UHGV virus genome: UHGV-0391889
Origin: a virus
DNA: 39,374 nt
Reading direction: 5' to 3' (one strand)
Part shown: positions 1-39,374 of the stretch, piece after piece
How positions within the stretch are numbered: the first letter of the stretch is position 1
Layout: the number at the start of each line of letters is the position of its first letter
Notes under the pieces: generated by a model
What the model was told of the DNA's origin: nothing
The model's database searches: none
Seen by the model: the letters and a program-made list of their open reading frames with translations, nothing else
Position numbers and translations under genes: made by a program

Positions 1-68
1 AACGTTTATGAAAATGCAGAAATAACGAGCAAATGGCATCATTCCTGCTTTTGTCAGGGAGATCTACC

Positions 69-623
69 ATGCTTATTGGCTATGTACGCGTATCAACAAA
101 TGACCAGAATACCGATCTACAACGTAATGCGTTGAACTGTGCAGGATGCGAGCTGATTTTTGAAGACAAGATAAGCGGTACAAAGTCCGAAAGGCCGGGA
201 CTGAAAAAACTGCTCAGGACATTATCGGCAGGTGACACTCTGGTTGTCTGGAAGCTGGATCGGCTGGGGCGTAGTATGCGGCATCTGGTCATTCTGGTTG
301 AGGAGTTGCGCGAACGTGGCGTTAATTTTCGCAGCCTGACGGATGCTATTGATACCAGCACACCGATGGGGCGTTTTTTCTTTCATGTGATGGGGGCCCT
401 GGCTGAAATGGAACGAGAACTGATTGTTGAACGAACAAAAGCTGGACTGGAAGCTGCTCGCGCACAGGGACGAATTGGTGGACGTCGTCCCAAACTTACA
501 CCAGAACAATGGGCGCAGGCCGGGCGACTAATTGCATCAGGAGTTCCTCGCCAGAAGGTGGCGATCATTTATGATGTTGGCGTATCGACTTTGTATAAGA
601 AGTTTCCGGTCGGAGATAAATGA
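69..623 (+). CDS. pin: Serine DNA invertase, Pin/Hin/Gin family
   Basis: Translation from the internal Met (MLIGYVRVSTNDQ...) has the resolvase N-terminal catalytic Ser motif and a C-terminal HTH; very close to my recollection of e14 PinE. Track ORF 33-623 trimmed to the conserved start. Confidence 0.9.
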   Translation: MLIGYVRVSTNDQNTDLQRNALNCAGCELIFEDKISGTKSERPGLKKLLRTLSAGDTLVVWKLDRLGRSMRHLVILVEELRERGVNFRSLTDAIDTSTPMGRFFFHVMGALAEMERELIVERTKAGLEAARAQGRIGGRRPKLTPEQWAQAGRLIASGVPRQKVAIIYDVGVSTLYKKFPVGDK

Positions 624-783
624 AACCGTAGCACGTCGTATGCAAGAACGTGCCACGGCTGGCTGATGGACGTTCGATAGCGCGAGTTTGAATGAAAATC
701 AGCCGGAGGTGATTTTACATAATTGTTGCGGAATCATTCAATATAGGGATTGCTTATTTCTGCCTGGATTGGTCTGAAATAGT

Positions 784-1018
784 CCCGAAATTTTCTCTAA
801 AAAACTCGAAAAAAATGGTAACTAATTGAATGCATTAATATGCAATGGTACGTGTTTGGGATTAAAAGATGAGCGTAATTTTGCTTAACAAATTAATTTA
901 AAAAGGGTTTCTTGTTTGTTGACGAAAACAGGAATCGTATTCGGTCTTTTTTTAATTGTATTTAAAATCAATTAGTTGCAAACGTCTCCCCGAAATTACT
1001 CGAAATTTACTCGAATTT
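784..1018. repeat. attP-like region with five arm-type direct repeats, consensus (A/C)nnCGAAAtT
   Basis: Copies at 784-794, 805-814, 988-997, 998-1007 and 1009-1018 in an AT-rich non-coding stretch just beyond the 3' end of int. Confidence 0.45.
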
Positions 1019-1084
1019 CTGTATTCCGGTCTTTTTTGGTTATATCACAACCAAAACACATTTAACAATCCATTTACGTTAAAA

Positions 1085-36807: not shown

Positions 36808-37160
36808 TGCGATACAGACGTGAAGACGCCGATGGCGATTACACCTTTGGCAGCGGTGATGACACCTGGCTGATTAACTCACCGGAGGCCGTGGCGCAGG
36901 CGGTAAAAACGCGATTCGAATTGTGGTATGGGCAATGGTTTCTCGACACCACCGAAGGGACTCCGTGGATCCAGTCCGTGCTCGGTAAGCAGAAGCCGGA
37001 AACCTACAACCTGGCGATCCGTAAGCGCATCCTCGAAACGCGGGGCGTTAAATCAATCCTCTCTTTCAATACGACAGTGGATACCACGACCCGACGTGTC
37101 ATGTTTTCCGCTGAAATCGACACTCTTTATGGAATAACGACTGTTACATCGGAGGCGTAA
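36807..37160 (+). CDS. Baseplate protein W-like (gp25-like)
   Basis: 117 aa; P2 V-W-J-I gene order. Confidence 0.7.
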   Translation: MRYRREDADGDYTFGSGDDTWLINSPEAVAQAVKTRFELWYGQWFLDTTEGTPWIQSVLGKQKPETYNLAIRKRILETRGVKSILSFNTTVDTTTRRVMFSAEIDTLYGITTVTSEA

Positions 37161-38359
37161 TGGCTCTGAACCTTGATTCTCTCGGTTTATCTGCAAAGGT
37201 AACCGCGGAGGGGATCAGTGCGCCTGATTATCAGACGATACTCAGCACCCTGATTAGCTATTTTCAGCAGATTTATGGCAGTGATGCCTACCTCGAACCG
37301 GACAGCAAAGACGGCCAGATGGTGGCTCTGATGGCGTTGGCGATTCATGATGCCAATAATACGGCGATAACTGTCTACAACTGTTTTTCACCGGCAACCG
37401 GCTATGGGGCTGCACTGACCAGTAACGTGAAAATAAATGGTATTTCACGTAAAGGCGCGACGAATTCTACGGTTGATTTGCTTCTTACAGGAACTGCCGG
37501 AACAACCATCATTAATGGCAGCGTGAAAGACAGTAATAATGTGATATGGCGTTTGCCTGCTTCAGTGGTGGTCGGCGTGGATGGTACAGTGATGGTGACT
37601 GCAACATGTTCCGTCAGTGGTGCAGTGGCGGCGCTGGCTGGAACTATCACTGAAATAAATACGCCAACCCGTGGCTGGGTTTCGGTAACTAATCCTGCTG
37701 CGGCTACCGTGGGCACTCAGGCAGAAACTGACGCGGAGTTACGTATCCGCCAGTCGCAAAGTGTTGCGTTGCCATCAATAACCCCATTTGAAGCACTGGA
37801 TGGTGCTGTTTCTAATGTTACCGGTGTAACCCGCCACAAACTCTATGAAAACGATACTGGTTCGGAGGATGGTAACGGGTTACCGCCACACTCTGTTGCT
37901 GTAATTGTGGATGGCGGTGATGTGACGGATATTGCTCAGGCTATCAGAGGGAATAAAGGCCAGGGGACAGCCACTCACGGTACAACATCCGTTACGGTTC
38001 CGGATAAATACGGCAATCCCCATGTAATCAAATTCTCGCGTTCCAGTGATGTGCCTGTTTATGCCCGGATTAAATTAAAAGTTTTTACGGGTTATACCTC
38101 ACAGATAGGGCAGCAGATCCAGCAGGCTATTTCCGACTATATCAATAGTCTGATGATTGGTGATTCGGTCCTTTTAAGTCGCATTTACTCACCGGCGAAT
38201 CTTGGCGTGGTGAGTGGCGGGAATGCACGCTATTACGATATTCAGGAACTGACGATTGGGAAATCCCCGGAGGCTTTGTCGTCATCAAACATTGATATCA
38301 GATACAACGAATCTGCGTCCTGTACCCCGGAAAATATCGTTATAACGGTGGAGTCATGA
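37160..38359 (+). CDS. Baseplate protein J-like
   Basis: 399 aa; P2 gpJ-like position and size. Confidence 0.75.
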   Translation: MALNLDSLGLSAKVTAEGISAPDYQTILSTLISYFQQIYGSDAYLEPDSKDGQMVALMALAIHDANNTAITVYNCFSPATGYGAALTSNVKINGISRKGATNSTVDLLLTGTAGTTIINGSVKDSNNVIWRLPASVVVGVDGTVMVTATCSVSGAVAALAGTITEINTPTRGWVSVTNPAAATVGTQAETDAELRIRQSQSVALPSITPFEALDGAVSNVTGVTRHKLYENDTGSEDGNGLPPHSVAVIVDGGDVTDIAQAIRGNKGQGTATHGTTSVTVPDKYGNPHVIKFSRSSDVPVYARIKLKVFTGYTSQIGQQIQQAISDYINSLMIGDSVLLSRIYSPANLGVVSGGNARYYDIQELTIGKSPEALSSSNIDIRYNESASCTPENIVITVES

Positions 38360-39036
38360 GCAAATACACCGAACTAATCACGAACTACCACGCCACCAAA
38401 CCTAAATTTCTTGCGCATGTTGATCTGATGACCCGGCCACTTATTGATGTTGCGGCTGCCACCAGAGGGCTGATTACTGCATTTGATATTGACTCTGCGG
38501 TTGGTGTGCAACTTGACATTCTGGGATTGTGGATCGGACGTAGCCGTGTTGTCAGCCAGCCTATCTCAGGTGTCTATTTCAGCTGGGATACCGACGGGCT
38601 TGGATATGATCAGGGGGTATGGCAGGGACCATACGATCCTGATTCAGGATACATGTATCTCAGCGATGAAACTTATCGTGTCATTCTTAAAGCGAAGATT
38701 GCGATTAATAACTGGGACGGACGGAATGATTCGCTTCCGGCAATTCTTGACGCGGCAACAGCAGGATCCGGGCTGCGAATGCAGATAGTCGATAACCAGG
38801 ACATGACGATATCGGTCTGGGTCTTTCCTGATACTGATATTTCAGATGTATCGCGTGAGTTAATTGCGGCAATTAAACAGGGGTATCTAACAGTAAAAGC
38901 CGCCGGGGTATGGGCGGGGGGCATTGAAACACCTTCGGTGGAAACTCCATCGGAAGGCTCTAAATTTTTTGGTTTTGACATGGATAACGAATTCATCAGT
39001 GGTTTTGATGTAGGGGCATGGGGAGTATTACTCTGA
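38356..39036 (+). CDS. Baseplate / tail protein I-like (DUF2313-type)
   Basis: 226 aa immediately upstream of the tail fibre gene. Confidence 0.7.
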   Translation: MSKYTELITNYHATKPKFLAHVDLMTRPLIDVAAATRGLITAFDIDSAVGVQLDILGLWIGRSRVVSQPISGVYFSWDTDGLGYDQGVWQGPYDPDSGYMYLSDETYRVILKAKIAINNWDGRNDSLPAILDAATAGSGLRMQIVDNQDMTISVWVFPDTDISDVSRELIAAIKQGYLTVKAAGVWAGGIETPSVETPSEGSKFFGFDMDNEFISGFDVGAWGVLL

Positions 39037-39374
39037 TGGCGAAAAATGACTTTAAAGCGTTTGCAACTGATCGAAATGCCAATGTTATGTCGCAGGAGGA
39101 ATGGGAAGCGTTGCCTGCGCTTATATCCGGATTTACAGCAGGGAAAGCATCCAGTGCGCAAGTCAATAAGGTTATTCGGCAGGCCAGCTTTATTGCTGCA
39201 GCTCTGGCCCAGTTTGTAAGTGATAAAACGCAACGGGATGTGCTTGATAATGGTGATCTGCCCGGTTTTGTTGAATTGCTGGGATCGGGGTTTGCTGTTG
39301 AATACCTGAGCCGCAAGAATCCGTTTGGTGATATCAAATCGGATGGCACGGTGAAAACGGCTCTCGAAAACCTT
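39036..39374 (+). CDS. Tail fibre protein, N-terminal part (runs off the window)
   Basis: ATG overlaps the upstream stop; MAKNDFKAFATDRNANVMSQEEWEALPALISGFTAGKASSAQVNK resembles the conserved N-terminus of side tail fibre proteins. Confidence 0.7.
   Translation, partial: MAKNDFKAFATDRNANVMSQEEWEALPALISGFTAGKASSAQVNKVIRQASFIAAALAQFVSDKTQRDVLDNGDLPGFVELLGSGFAVEYLSRKNPFGDIKSDGTVKTALENL

What the first reader, a model, noticed from the sequence alone, without database searches (positions are those of the whole stretch)
1..39374. Mosaic genome: Rac-like early and immunity genes, lambda-like lysis, and a contractile-tail morphogenesis module
The early-left operon and immunity region resemble Rac, the endolysin is lambda R-like, but the virion module encodes a sheath, tube and P2-like baseplate (V, W, J, I) with a Pin invertase, as in e14 or Mu/P2-type phages. 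This implies a lambdoid regulatory chassis driving a myovirus-type tail. Rac and e14 are both defective in K-12, so an intact relative of either would be useful.
Basis: partly seen in the sequence, partly recalled or inferred. Interest (0 to 1): 0.4.

Follow-up and report, generated by a model that had tools for sequence, protein, structure and literature searches.

The report
Mosaic lambdoid coliphage with contractile tail
The window is an almost complete temperate E. coli phage genome that joins Rac-type early genes and a lambda/SfV-type lysis cassette to a SEN34-type contractile-tail virion module, a combination that is real but already documented and common among E. coli prophages.

Summary
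The mosaic is real, but its labels need correcting. The leftward early operon (rcbA, ralR/RalA, recT, recE, racC, ydaE, kilR, kilS) and ydaT/ydaV/ydaW are Rac-like (90-98% aa). The integrase, repressor and cro are not Rac's. The endolysin is 87% identical to lambda R, and the whole lysis cassette is closest to Shigella phage SfV (74-98% aa).

The virion module is not P2-, Mu- or e14-derived. All 24 SEN34 genes that match in full (terL to baseplate wedge) have collinear, single-frame counterparts (64-96% aa). SEN34 is a published lambda-like phage with a contractile tail seen by EM. The spike, sheath-initiator, J and wedge genes follow P2's V-W-J-I order, but share only Baseplate_J and the Apex motif with P2.

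Pin (96% to e14 PinE) lies at 69-623. The window is in attP form (pin-attP-int). Its two ends fall exactly on the crossover dinucleotides of the two pix sites, so only the ~1.9 kb invertible fibre segment seen in relatives is missing.

Relatives sit between yebY and pphA in E. coli: 248 of 5426 complete genomes hold the late module. This is an ordinary new member of a known kind, and not an intact Rac or e14.

The parts
1..14 (.). Central dinucleotide (AA) plus outer half-site of the right pix-type recombination site (AACGTTTATGAAAA). The window begins exactly at the crossover point.
   Evidence: Aligned with TTCTCCCAAACC|AA|CGTTTATGAAAA in e14 (L003 15606), PEC209 (L001 46095) and 611R5, and with the annotated Mu G-segment boundaries.
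69..623 (+). Pin-type serine DNA invertase, 184 aa.
   Evidence: 96% identical to e14 PinE over 184 aa, including the MLIGYVRVS motif. 77% to Mu Gin. Pfam Resolvase plus HTH_7.
929..955 (.). attP core (ACAGGAATCGTATTCGGTCTTTTTTTA).
   Evidence: Sequence to its left matches the attR side of the PEC209 prophage and sequence to its right matches the attL side. In the host, the core is the 3' half of a hairpin plus T-run lying between yebY and int.
1085..2161 (-). Tyrosine integrase with a lambda-type arm-binding domain.
   Evidence: Pfam Phage_integrase, Phage_int_M and Arm-DNA-bind_1. 38% to lambda Int, 39% to e14 IntE, no hit to Rac IntR.
2127..2414 (-). Excisionase.
   Evidence: Pfam Exc.
2515..2929 (-). 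rcbA-like (DUF1187) gene and the ralR toxin gene. The antisense RalA sRNA lies at 2519-2697 on the plus strand.
   Evidence: 98% and 94% aa to Rac. Rfam RalA 219 bits.
2947..6382 (-). recT and recE (RecET recombination pair).
   Evidence: 98% and 90% aa to Rac RecT and RecE. 95% nt.
6483..7236 (-). racC-like, ydaE and kilR (FtsZ inhibitor) genes.
   Evidence: 96%, 74% and 96% aa to Rac.
7399..7495 (-). kilS sRNA homologue.
   Evidence: 98% nt identity to the annotated K-12 kilS over 98 nt.
7631..8009 (.). Two small hypothetical genes: 7631-7825 on the plus strand and 7791-8009 on the minus strand.
   Evidence: phrog_22868. PGAP calls both in a genome that is 99% identical here.
8314..8703 (-). 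Immunity repressor, 129 aa. It has an HTH_3 domain and no S24 peptidase domain.
   Evidence: Pfam HTH_3/HTH_31. Start taken from the PGAP call in a 99%-identical genome. No similarity to RacR.
8717..8779 (.). Two TCAC-N6-GTGA operator-like repeats (8717-8730 and 8766-8779) in the divergent intergenic region.
   Evidence: the repeat finder family D1. Operator function is inferred.
8798..9462 (+). Cro-like HTH protein (8798-9043) and YdaT (9040-9462).
   Evidence: Pfam HTH_3. YdaT is 95% identical to Rac's, while cro has no Rac hit.
9540..11081 (+). Replication initiator (YdaU/O-like) and DnaC-like loader YdaV.
   Evidence: PHROG replication initiation protein. IstB_IS21 and Bac_DnaA. YdaV is 95% to Rac; only the C-terminal part of YdaU is Rac-like, at 64%.
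11053..14597 (+). ydaW (DUF1627), DUF977 and a nin-like run of small genes: DUF7167, DUF4014, an HNH endonuclease at about 13741-14106, and Ead/Ea22-like PHROGs.
   Evidence: ydaW is 90% to Rac.
14719..15042 (+). hok/sok type I toxin-antitoxin: sok RNA match at 14719-14889, hok ORF at 14887-15042.
   Evidence: Rfam sok 101 bits. Annotated as hokD in relatives.
15602..17042 (+). DUF1367, YbcO nuclease and a Q-family antiterminator (about 16488-17042).
   Evidence: Pfam DUF1367, YbcO, DUF1133 plus Phage_antitermQ.
17062..17870 (+). isrK-like and C4-like RNAs (17075-17151 and 17177-17260) followed by an ORF6N antirepressor-like gene (17313-17870).
   Evidence: Rfam isrK, C4 and c4-a1b1. Pfam ORF6N. 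The cassette is absent from PEC209 at this position and present in OkiPb01676.
17876..18237 (+). Candidate late promoter (TTGCAT-N17-TAAACT at about 17878-17906) followed by terminators at 17963-17988 and 18216-18237.
   Evidence: Sequence read directly. Terminator scan. The function is inferred by analogy with lambda PR'/tR'.
18342..19720 (+). Lysis cassette: lambda-family holin (18342-18701), lambda R-type endolysin (18705-19181), Rz (19165-19557), and an overlapping Rz1/LysC lipoprotein (19376-19720, lipobox LSGC).
   Evidence: Pfam Phage_holin_3_1, DUF2570 and LysC. R is 87% to lambda R. S, R, Rz and Rz1 are 98%, 96%, 84% and 74% to SfV.
19935..24280 (+). Small terminase, large terminase, portal and Mu-F-like head morphogenesis protein.
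   Evidence: Pfam Terminase_2, Phage_portal_3, Phage_Mu_F. PHROG terminase large subunit. 88-95% aa to SEN34 gp2-gp4.
24295..29079 (+). DUF2213 scaffold/protease-like protein, cement protein, major capsid protein, and the neck, head-completion and tail-terminator genes.
   Evidence: Pfam DUF2213, Phage_cement/XM1_gp53, Major_capside, DUF4054, Phage_tail_terminator_9. PHROG Neck1 and head protein. SEN34 gp5-gp12.
29083..30679 (+). Tail sheath (29083-30228) and tail tube (30239-30679).
   Evidence: Pfam DUF3383 and KPP10_Orf10. PDB sequence hits: XM1 sheath gp6 at 5e-41 and Pam3 sheath at 2e-24.
30683..31332 (+). Tail assembly chaperone with a predicted -1 frameshift. The slippery run GGGAAATTTTTTG (31078-31090) is in phase, and the extension ends at 31332.
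   Evidence: Pfam Phage_TAC_15. Slippery heptamers and an open -1 frame of 81 codons. Relatives annotate DUF6889 in this position.
31313..33301 (+). Tape measure protein, annotated as lytic transglycosylase in relatives.
   Evidence: 92% to SEN34 gp16 over residues 1-486, in the same frame throughout. Annotation.
33301..35263 (+). Dit-like baseplate protein, Pam3 gp18-like plug and baseplate hub.
   Evidence: Pfam Dit_like, Pam3_gp18, and a weak E217_GP41 match. 85-90% to SEN34 gp17-gp19.
35266..35988 (+). Variable cargo slot holding two small proteins with N-terminal signal peptides (114 and 121 aa).
   Evidence: Translations. phrog_3443 for the first and no family for the second. The slot content differs in PEC209, 611R5 and SEN34.
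36055..39036 (+). Baseplate block: spike (36055-36807), sheath initiator (36807-37160), Baseplate_J wedge (37160-38359) and DUF2612 wedge (38356-39036).
   Evidence: Pfam N-terminal spike domain (name masked as 'xxxxx_N' in the output), GpV Apex, Baseplate_J, DUF2612. PDB: Pam3 gp21 sheath initiator at 5e-12, XM1 gp16/gp17 wedge, E217 gp43 spike, Mu gp47 at 7e-4. Precomputed Pfam names Sheath_initiator and Phage_Wedge1.
39036..39374 (+). Constant N-terminal 113 codons of the tail-fibre gene, cut off at the window end.
   Evidence: 67% to the N-terminus of SEN34 gp27. First 22 aa are 95-100% to e14 StfP and SfV orf21.
39361..39374 (.). Outer half-site plus central dinucleotide (CTCTCGAAAACC|TT) of the left pix-type site. 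The window ends exactly at the crossover point.
   Evidence: Aligned with CTCTCGAAAACCTTGGTTT(A/G)GGAGAA in PEC209, e14 and 611R5.

Best explanation
The window is the genome of a temperate, lambdoid-organised E. coli myovirus in its excised (attP) form. It lacks only the roughly 1.9 kb Pin-invertible tail-fibre segment seen in relatives.

Shown by sequence comparison:
- It is built from exchangeable modules.
- One module is a lambda-type int/xis with an attP that targets a terminator-like hairpin between yebY and the prophage.
- A second is the Rac early-left operon (RecET, KilR, RalR/RalA, kilS).
- A third is a non-Rac repressor/cro pair joined to Rac-type ydaT, ydaV and ydaW.
- A fourth is a nin-like region ending in a Q-family antiterminator.
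- A fifth is an SfV/lambda-type holin, R-transglycosylase and Rz/Rz1 cassette.
- The last is a 19 kb SEN34-type virion module: terminase, portal, capsid, sheath, tube, frameshifted chaperone, tape measure, hub, spike, sheath initiator, two wedge proteins and a fibre.

Inferred life cycle:
- The short repressor holds divergent early promoters.
- Because the repressor lacks a self-cleavage domain, induction probably works through the RNA-controlled ORF6N antirepressor.
- Q lets RNA polymerase read through the terminators downstream of the candidate late promoter, into the lysis and morphogenesis genes.
- A contractile-tailed particle is built.
- Pin flips the fibre segment to alternate receptor specificity.
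For: - Whole-window comparison gives Rac 6,974 nt at 91-95%, SEN34 17,409 nt at 76-84%, lambda only the R gene, P2 nothing, and Mu and e14 only pin.
- Every one of the 24 SEN34 genes that match in full (gp2-gp7, gp9-gp19, gp22, gp24-gp26) has a full-length, single-frame counterpart in the same order.
- Pfam, PHROG and PDB assignments identify sheath, tube, chaperone, plug, spike, sheath initiator and wedges.
- The pin-attP-int arrangement and the att core are shown.
- The window ends fall on the pix crossover dinucleotides.
- Q family, promoter-like site and terminators.
- Lysis cassette identities.
- An in-phase slippery run lies in the chaperone gene.
- The same gene order sits at yebY|pphA in PEC209 (34,433 of 39,374 nt aligned at 96-98.6%) and in OkiPb01676.
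- 248 of 5426 complete E. coli genomes hold at least 80% of window 18000-39374.
- 22 genomes hold at least 80% of the Q-lysis-terminase junction region.
- SEN34 has a contractile tail by EM together with lambda-like regulation (PMC5261728).
- Induced E. coli phage 923, whose nearest neighbour is vB_EcoM-683R1, is a myovirus by TEM (PMC12945033).
Against: - No experiment has been done on this sequence, so functionality is inferred from intact reading frames and the attP form.
- The receptor-binding part of the fibre and its assembly genes are missing from the window.
- No N-type antiterminator was identified.
- The late promoter, the operators and the induction route through the antirepressor are inferences.
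- The N-terminal part of terS and the immunity allele are rare: 6 genomes carry the immunity allele.
- Why both window ends fall exactly on the crossover dinucleotide, rather than a few bases further in, is not explained by a simple assembly-break model using PEC209-type sites.
Confidence: 0.85

Rival explanations
1. One reading: this is an intact relative of the defective K-12 prophages Rac and/or e14, with a P2/Mu-type tail driven by a Rac-like chassis.
For: - The Rac early-left operon and ydaT/ydaV/ydaW are 90-98% aa identical.
- Pin is 96% identical to e14 PinE, and the pix sites are the same.
- The baseplate genes follow the V-W-J-I order.
Against: - Int, xis, the att site, the repressor and cro are not Rac's.
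- Rac's surviving late genes (ynaA, lomR, stfR, tfaR) have no match.
- e14's jayE and ymfQ, and SfV's Mu-like tail genes, have no match.
- No protein matches P2 apart from the endolysin.
- Pfam families differ for sheath, tube, W and I.
Confidence: 0.07
2. The window is an assembly chimera of two different prophages, one Rac-like and one SEN34-like, or a decayed cryptic prophage rather than one functional genome.
For: - The window ends fall inside repeats.
- No single record in the collections searched covers the whole window.
Against: - The same junctions are contiguous in finished E. coli chromosomes: PEC209, OkiPb01676, and 22 genomes for the region 14700-25000.
- All structural genes are full length and in one frame.
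- DUF977, which is frameshifted in PEC209, is intact here.
- The attP junction is precise.
Confidence: 0.04
3. The window is a genuine circular deletion derivative that has lost the invertible segment, leaving a phage with a truncated, non-functional fibre gene.
For: Both ends stop exactly at the crossover dinucleotides of the two pix sites.
Against: - The sites are in inverted orientation, which gives inversion and not deletion.
- Joining the two ends would create a site with a 4-nt centre (TT+AA), which is not a legitimate recombination product.
- Relatives all carry a fibre module between these points.
Confidence: 0.04

Closest known systems
Salmonella phage SEN34 (Brunovirus SEN34; the 'temperate 26' lambda cluster)
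   Same: - 24 collinear virion genes from terL to the baseplate wedge at 64-96% aa and 76-84% nt.
- Lambda-like genome order with Q and a lysis cassette upstream of the terminase genes.
- A contractile tail was shown by EM for SEN34 (PMC5261728).
   Different: - The early, immunity, replication and lysis genes are different alleles or families. SEN34 has lambda-type exo/bet/gam and O/P.
- The att and int differ.
- SEN34 has no Pin or invertible fibre segment.
- Genome-wide nucleotide similarity is only about 36%, below the 70% genus threshold.
E. coli prophages between yebY and pphA (e.g. PEC209 NZ_CM168015.1, OkiPb01676 NZ_AP042480.1); PHASTER-extracted records vB_EcoM-611R5 and 683R1; induced urinary phage 923
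   Same: - Same att site, gene order, Rac-type early operon and SEN34-type late module at 96-98.6% nt.
- Same Pin plus invertible fibre cassette.
- Phage 923 was imaged as a myovirus (PMC12945033).
   Different: - This window has its own combination of alleles for immunity, the nin region, the isrK/C4/antirepressor cassette, the terS N-terminus and the hub-spike slot cargo.
- It is in attP form rather than integrated.
Rac cryptic prophage of E. coli K-12
   Same: rcbA, ralR/RalA, recT, recE, racC, ydaE, kilR, kilS, ydaT, ydaV and ydaW at 74-98% aa.
   Different: - Different integrase and att site (Rac sits at ttcA).
- Different repressor and cro.
- No sieB, ydaF or ydaG.
- No counterpart of Rac's late remnants (ynaA, lomR, stfR, tfaR).
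- Pin is only 38% identical to PinR.
e14 cryptic prophage and its intact relatives SfV/SfI
   Same: - Pin 96% to PinE, identical pix half-sites, and the first 22 aa of the fibre.
- Lysis cassette 74-98% aa to SfV.
- SfV and SfI are likewise lambdoid genomes with contractile tails (PMC3636060).
   Different: - SfV and e14 tails are Mu-like (annotated as similar to Mu GpL and gp45-48), and no BLASTP match to them was found here.
- The integrase and att site differ.
Phage lambda
   Same: - Overall gene order.
- Int with an arm-binding domain (38%).
- Holin family; R endolysin 87%.
- Q-family antiterminator logic.
   Different: - No detectable N.
- Different repressor type, with no S24 domain.
- RecET in place of Red.
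- Overlapping rather than embedded Rz1.
- Contractile tail instead of a siphovirus tail.
Phages P2 and Mu
   Same: - Functional layout of the baseplate operon: spike, sheath initiator, J, second wedge, fibre.
- A frameshifted tail chaperone.
- Baseplate_J domain and GpV Apex motif.
- A Gin/Pin-type fibre switch, which Mu has.
   Different: - No sequence-level relationship except Mu gp47 (25%).
- Sheath, tube, W-type and I-type proteins fall in other Pfam families.
- No P2 capsid or regulatory genes and no Mu transposase.
- P2 has no invertase.
Structurally solved simple-baseplate myoviruses XM1, Pam3 and E217
   Same: Sheath, sheath initiator, both wedge proteins, spike, plug and cement protein match their chains or Pfam families.
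   Different: - These are only distant relatives (E-values 1e-5 to 1e-41).
- Their hosts and the rest of their genomes are unrelated.

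Membership tests
Lambdoid temperate phage (lambda supercluster) | int-xis next to attP at the end of a leftward early operon. | tested here: met
   Int with arm-binding domain and Exc. attP core mapped against attL and attR of PEC209.
Lambdoid temperate phage (lambda supercluster) | Divergent repressor/cro pair, followed rightward by a replication initiator and a helicase loader. | tested here: met
   HTH_3 repressor and cro. Operator-like repeats. Initiator PHROG and IstB/DnaA-type loader.
Lambdoid temperate phage (lambda supercluster) | Q-family antiterminator, then a late promoter and terminator, then holin-endolysin-Rz/Rz1 ahead of the terminase genes. 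| tested here: met
   DUF1133 plus Phage_antitermQ at 27.1 bits against a cut-off of 26. Promoter-like site and terminators. Lysis genes. Promoter function is inferred only.
Lambdoid temperate phage (lambda supercluster) | N-type early antiterminator and nut sites. | tested here: inconclusive
   No ORF between kilR and the repressor matched any N family in Pfam or PHROGs. nut sites were not searched for.
Lambdoid temperate phage (lambda supercluster) | Can form viable recombinants with lambda (the classical definition). | not testable with these tools
   This needs genetic crosses.
Rac prophage | Early-left operon rcbA-ralR-recT-recE-racC-ydaE-kilR with the RalA and kilS RNAs. | tested here: met
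   74-98% aa and 91-95% nt. RalA. kilS.
Rac prophage | IntR/XisR and integration at ttcA. | tested here: not met
   No BLASTP hit to IntR or XisR. The att core lies in a hairpin plus T-run between yebY and int.
Rac prophage | RacR/YdaS immunity pair. | tested here: not met
   No alignment to RacR at E<=100. No hit of cro to YdaS.
Rac prophage | Rac late genes (ynaA, lomR, stfR, tfaR, pinR). | tested here: not met
   No nt or aa match apart from Pin at 38% to PinR.
e14 / SfV-SfI group | Pin invertase with pix sites flanking the fibre segment. | tested here: met
   96% to PinE. Both outer half-sites are identical to e14's. The segment itself lies outside the window.
e14 / SfV-SfI group | Mu-like sheath and baseplate (SfV orf11 and orf15-20; e14 jayE and ymfQ), and IntE with integration at icd. 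| tested here: not met
   No BLASTP hits to these ORFs. Int is 39% to IntE, and the att site is different.
P2-like phages (Peduoviridae) | Baseplate operon in the order V-W-J-I followed by the fibre gene. | tested here: met
   Spike, sheath initiator, Baseplate_J protein, second wedge and fibre lie in that order at 36055-39374.
P2-like phages (Peduoviridae) | Membership of P2's own protein families: Phage_base_V/Phage_spike, GPW_gp25, Tail_P2_I, Phage_sheath_1, Phage_tube. | tested here: not met
   P2's own proteins hit those families. The window's proteins instead hit the masked 'xxxxx_N' spike domain, no family or Sheath_initiator, DUF2612, DUF3383 and KPP10_Orf10. Only Baseplate_J and Apex are shared. 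J against P2 J gives BLASTP E=0.4.
P2-like phages (Peduoviridae) | P2 capsid and terminase genes (Q, P, O, N, M, L) and the C/Cox/Ogr regulators. | tested here: not met
   The only BLASTP hit to P2 is endolysin K at 55%.
Mu-like phages | Transposase A/B and transpositional replication. | tested here: not met
   No hits to Mu early genes. The window has an integrase and attP instead.
SEN34-like virion module | Collinear full-length homologues of the SEN34 virion genes from terL to the baseplate wedge. | tested here: met
   24 genes are matched over their full length in a single frame at 64-96% aa. The tape measure matches at both ends in one frame.
Genus Brunovirus (ICTV nucleotide criterion) | At least 70% genome-wide nucleotide similarity to SEN34. 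| tested here: not met
   About 36% by BLASTN identities over length. Phage 923 was reported at 31.3%.
Contractile-tailed (myovirus) particle | Contractile sheath seen around a tube by electron microscopy. | not testable with these tools
   Sheath and tube genes are present. EM exists only for relatives: SEN34 and phage 923.

The most novel reading that the evidence does not exclude
The slot between the baseplate-hub and spike genes (35266-35988) may be a cargo hotspot of SEN34-like phages. Its content differs in every relative examined.

Here it encodes two small secreted proteins. One is a strongly conserved predicted 8-stranded beta-barrel (121 aa) with no Pfam, PHROG or PADLOC family and no confident structural match.

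These could be an uncharacterised periplasmic superinfection-exclusion factor or another lysogenic-conversion function. The evidence does not exclude this, and it does not support any specific function either.
Probability: 0.15. Interest if true: 0.4.

Novelty: new member of a known kind. Interest (0 to 1): 0.15.

Why it matters
It matters little for new biology. Lambdoid genomes that build contractile tails have been known since SfV and SEN34, and this prophage type is common in E. coli.

It has modest practical value:
- The sequence appears to be an excised genome with no visibly disrupted gene that carries the complete Rac early-left operon (RecET, KilR, RalR/RalA, kilS). It could therefore serve as a natural, active context for genes otherwise studied in the defective K-12 Rac.
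- It corrects the idea that the tail descends from P2, Mu or e14.
- It is a clear worked example of module exchange at defined breakpoints.

Tried and rejected
- **P2, Mu and e14 ancestry of the tail.** BLASTN and BLASTP of the whole window against P2, Mu, e14 and SfV gave no structural hits except Mu gp47 at 25%. Rejected.
- **Rac-type immunity.** The repressor against RacR gave no alignment. Rejected.
- **Defence genes in the moron regions.** A PADLOC scan of ten candidate cargo proteins gave only generic HNH (PtuB-like) and ORF6N matches. No defence system could be called.
- **Function of the 121-aa slot protein.** The homologue search returned only hypothetical proteins. AlphaFold gave pLDDT 79. 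Foldseek against the PDB found avidin/lipocalin-like barrels at E>=0.04 and TM about 0.5, which is not a usable assignment. BLASTP between the two slot proteins showed no significant paralogy.
- **attP junction elsewhere.** A scan of IMG/VR for the attP junction found none.
- **Literature on the closest GenBank phages.** A search for vB_EcoM-611R5 found nothing. The ON4705xx records turned out to be PHASTER predictions, not isolated phages, so they are not evidence of inducibility.
- **ORF 17790-18194 (minus strand).** It has no family and is unannotated in relatives, and it overlaps the late leader region. It was treated as non-coding.

Full report
**What is in the window**

The 39,374-base window has no tRNA genes. 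Genes run leftward up to about 8.7 kb and rightward after that.

Megablast against phage records splits the window in two:
- The left half resembles Rac-like early regions of E. coli prophage records, for example vB_EcoS-666R9 at 94% and Rac-SA53 at 91%.
- The right half resembles vB_EcoM-611R5 and 683R1 at 97%, and Salmonella phage SEN34 at 82%.

In complete E. coli genomes, close relatives are integrated between yebY and pphA:
- PEC209 aligns over 34,433 of 39,374 bases at 96-98.6% with the same gene order.
- 248 of 5426 genomes hold at least 80% of window 18000-39374.
- 22 genomes hold at least 80% of the 10.3 kb stretch that joins the Q/lysis region to the terminase and portal genes.

**Form of the genome**

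- Window 1-954 matches the right end of the PEC209 prophage (pinE and the sequence up to attR). Window 923 onward matches its left end, from attL and int.
- The shared core is ACAGGAATCGTATTCGGTCTTTTTTTA at about 929-955. Sequence to the left of it follows the attR arm and sequence to the right follows the attL arm. The window therefore reads pin-attP-int, which is the excised or replicative form and not an integrated prophage.
- In the host, the core is the 3' half of a hairpin plus T-run that lies between yebY and the prophage. I read this as the yebY terminator, which is an inference.
- The last 14 bases of the window (CTCTCGAAAACC|TT) and the first 14 (AA|CGTTTATGAAAA) are the outer half-sites plus central dinucleotides of the two 26-bp pix-type recombination sites. 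In e14, PEC209 and 611R5 these sites flank the invertible fibre segment, and they align with the annotated Mu G-segment boundaries.
- What is missing is therefore that roughly 1.9 kb segment. The most likely reason is an assembly break at a segment present in both orientations. That is an inference, and the exactness of the break is not fully explained.
- An exact-pattern scan for the attP junction in IMG/VR found nothing.

1. Rac-like early-left operon: confirmed.
   - Identities to K-12 Rac are rcbA 98%, ralR 94%, recT 98%, recE 90%, racC 96%, ydaE 74% and kilR 96% aa.
   - The RalA sRNA is present, and kilS is 98% nt identical.

2. Rac-like immunity region: only partly confirmed.
   - ydaT (95%), ydaV (95%), ydaW (90%) and the C-terminal part of ydaU (64%) are Rac-like.
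   - The repressor is a 129-aa HTH protein at 8314-8703 on the minus strand. Its start is confirmed by the PGAP call in a 99%-identical genome. It has no similarity to RacR.
   - The cro-like gene has no hit to YdaS. Int and xis are unrelated to IntR/XisR, and are 38-39% identical to lambda Int and e14 IntE.
   - This immunity allele occurs at 98-99% identity in only 6 complete E. coli genomes.

3. Lambda R-like endolysin: confirmed, at 87% over 158 aa.
   - The holin belongs to Pfam's lambda S family.
   - The whole cassette is closer to SfV: S 98%, R 96%, Rz 84%, Rz1 74%.
   - Rz1 carries a lipobox (LSGC). It overlaps Rz and extends past its end, whereas in lambda Rz1 is embedded within Rz.

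4. Sheath, tube and baseplate: present, but not of P2, Mu or e14 descent.
   - No window protein except the endolysin hits P2. Among the structural proteins, only the J-like protein hits Mu (gp47, 25%, E=7e-5). None of the structural proteins hits e14 or SfV.
   - P2's own V, W, I, FI and FII fall in Phage_base_V/Phage_spike, GPW_gp25, Tail_P2_I, Phage_sheath_1 and Phage_tube.
   - The window's counterparts fall in a masked 'xxxxx_N' spike domain plus Apex, Sheath_initiator, DUF2612 (Phage_Wedge1), DUF3383 (E217_gp31_N) and KPP10_Orf10. Only Baseplate_J and the Apex motif are shared.
   - Sequence searches of solved structures name the parts directly: XM1 gp6 sheath (5e-41), Pam3 sheath (2e-24), Pam3 gp21 sheath initiator (5e-12), XM1 gp16 and gp17 wedge proteins, and E217 gp43 spike. 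Mu gp47 appears only at 7e-4.
   - The block works like P2 V-W-J-I and has the same order, but it is not a member of the P2 or Mu families.

5. Pin: confirmed at 69-623. It is 96% identical to e14 PinE and carries the N-terminal catalytic-serine motif.

**The real relative of the virion module**

- Twenty-four SEN34 genes (gp2-gp7, gp9-gp19, gp22, gp24-gp26) have full-length, single-frame, collinear counterparts at 64-96% aa. The tape measure matches at both ends in one frame. Nothing is visibly disrupted.
- Only the C-terminal 26 aa of terS match SEN34.
- The tail-chaperone gene carries three overlapping in-phase slippery heptamers (GGGAAATTTTTTG, 31078-31090). The -1 frame stays open for 81 further codons, as expected for the conserved chaperone frameshift.
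- Genome-wide nucleotide similarity to SEN34 is only about 36%. The phage therefore shares the SEN34 virion module but not the genus by the ICTV 70% rule.

**Regulatory logic**

- Two TCAC-N6-GTGA repeats lie in the 95-bp divergent region between the repressor and cro genes.
- The Q-family gene (DUF1133 plus Phage_antitermQ) is followed by a cassette that PEC209 lacks at this position. It holds isrK-like and C4-like RNAs and an ORF6N antirepressor-like protein. OkiPb01676 carries the same cassette.
- Next come a promoter-like TTGCAT-N17-TAAACT and two strong terminators ahead of the holin gene.
- The repressor has no S24 peptidase domain, so I infer induction through an antirepressor rather than self-cleavage.
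- No N-type antiterminator was found.

**Comparison with what is known**

- SEN34 was described in 2017 as genetically lambda-like but with Myoviridae morphology by EM, and as the prototype of a new lambda cluster (PMC5261728).
- SfV and SfI are lambdoid genomes with contractile, Mu-like tails, and they are the intact relatives of e14 (PMC3636060; annotation).
- A 2026 study induced a urinary E. coli phage (923). Its nearest GenBank neighbour is vB_EcoM-683R1 and its nearest ICTV exemplar is SEN34 (31.3% similarity). It was imaged as a myovirus (PMC12945033).
- The ON4705xx 'phages' are PHASTER predictions from clinical genomes.
- Relatives at the same att site swap modules freely. OkiPb01676 carries lambda exo/bet/gam in place of recT and part of recE. 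611R5 joins the same late module to a DNA-polymerase/helicase early region at another site. Several relatives carry an 807-aa Peptidase_S74 fibre and no Pin.
- Every segment of the window that PEC209 lacks is found at 96-99% in some other E. coli genome.

**Verdict**

- 'Lambdoid chassis, contractile tail' holds.
- 'P2/Mu/e14-type tail' and 'intact relative of Rac or e14' do not hold.

The element is an ordinary, apparently intact mosaic member of a known and widespread prophage family. Interest is low.

The only unexplained items are the variable hub-spike slot with two secreted proteins of unknown function and the exactness of the window ends at the pix crossover points.

Noticed in passing
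window 1-14 and 39361-39374: Both window ends stop exactly at the central dinucleotides of the two pix-type sites that flank the invertible fibre segment in relatives. The ~1.9 kb segment is therefore the only part of the genome that is missing, probably through an assembly break at a flipping segment.
   Followed up: yes
window 929-955; L001 3823-3854 and 47029-47060: The attP core equals the 3' half of a hairpin plus T-run between yebY and the prophage (read as the yebY terminator). The hairpin is complete at attL, so integration appears to preserve it.
   Followed up: partly
window 17062-17870: isrK-like and P1 C4-like antisense RNAs, followed by an ORF6N antirepressor-like gene, lie between Q and the late promoter. 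This resembles the P1 immI and Gifsy-1 isrK modules (the comparison is from my own knowledge). The cassette is absent from PEC209 and present in OkiPb01676.
   Followed up: partly
window 35266-35988: A variable slot between the baseplate hub and spike genes encodes two small proteins with signal peptides. The 121-aa one has no family, is strongly conserved (motifs FDVWGANGGMHNHYTT and DADDRPRGD), and models as an 8-stranded beta-barrel without a confident structural match. The exact protein is listed in 597 blocks of the public assembly collection.
   Followed up: partly
window 31078-31332: Three overlapping in-phase slippery heptamers (GGGAAATTTTTTG) lie in the tail-chaperone gene, with an 81-codon -1 extension that overlaps the tape-measure start.
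   Followed up: yes
window 8314-8797: The repressor is only 129 aa and has no S24 self-cleavage domain. Two TCAC-N6-GTGA repeats, 49 bp apart, lie in the divergent promoter region.
   Followed up: partly
window 14719-15042, 2519-2929 and 7399-7495: Three small-RNA modules are carried: hok/sok, RalR/RalA, and a kilS homologue next to kilR.
   Followed up: partly
window 19165-19720: Rz1 (LysC family, lipobox LSGC) overlaps Rz and extends past its end, as the P2 LysB/LysC pair does in its annotation. In lambda, Rz1 is embedded within Rz.
   Followed up: partly
L012-L015, L017 and L019 (13414-15837) compared with L016 and L018: Relatives at the same att site with the same baseplate carry either a fibre with a Peptidase_S74 domain (807 aa where called in full) and no Pin, or the short Gp53-like fibre with inverted assembly genes and Pin. 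The fibre module is swapped wholesale.
   Followed up: no
L009 7476-11227: The OkiPb01676 relative has lambda-type exo/bet/gam inserted in place of recT and the 3' part of recE, leaving a truncated recE pseudogene.
   Followed up: no
GenBank PP818812.1 (hit H4): A record labelled Actinobacillus pleuropneumoniae phage vB_Apl-pPE4 matches about half of window 2162-17997 (the Rac-like early and nin region) at 93% nt identity. That is an odd host label for E. coli-type DNA.
   Followed up: no
window 13741-14106: An HNH endonuclease gene sits in the nin-like region. It has weak PtuB-like PADLOC matches only, and no partner gene of a defence system was found.
   Followed up: partly
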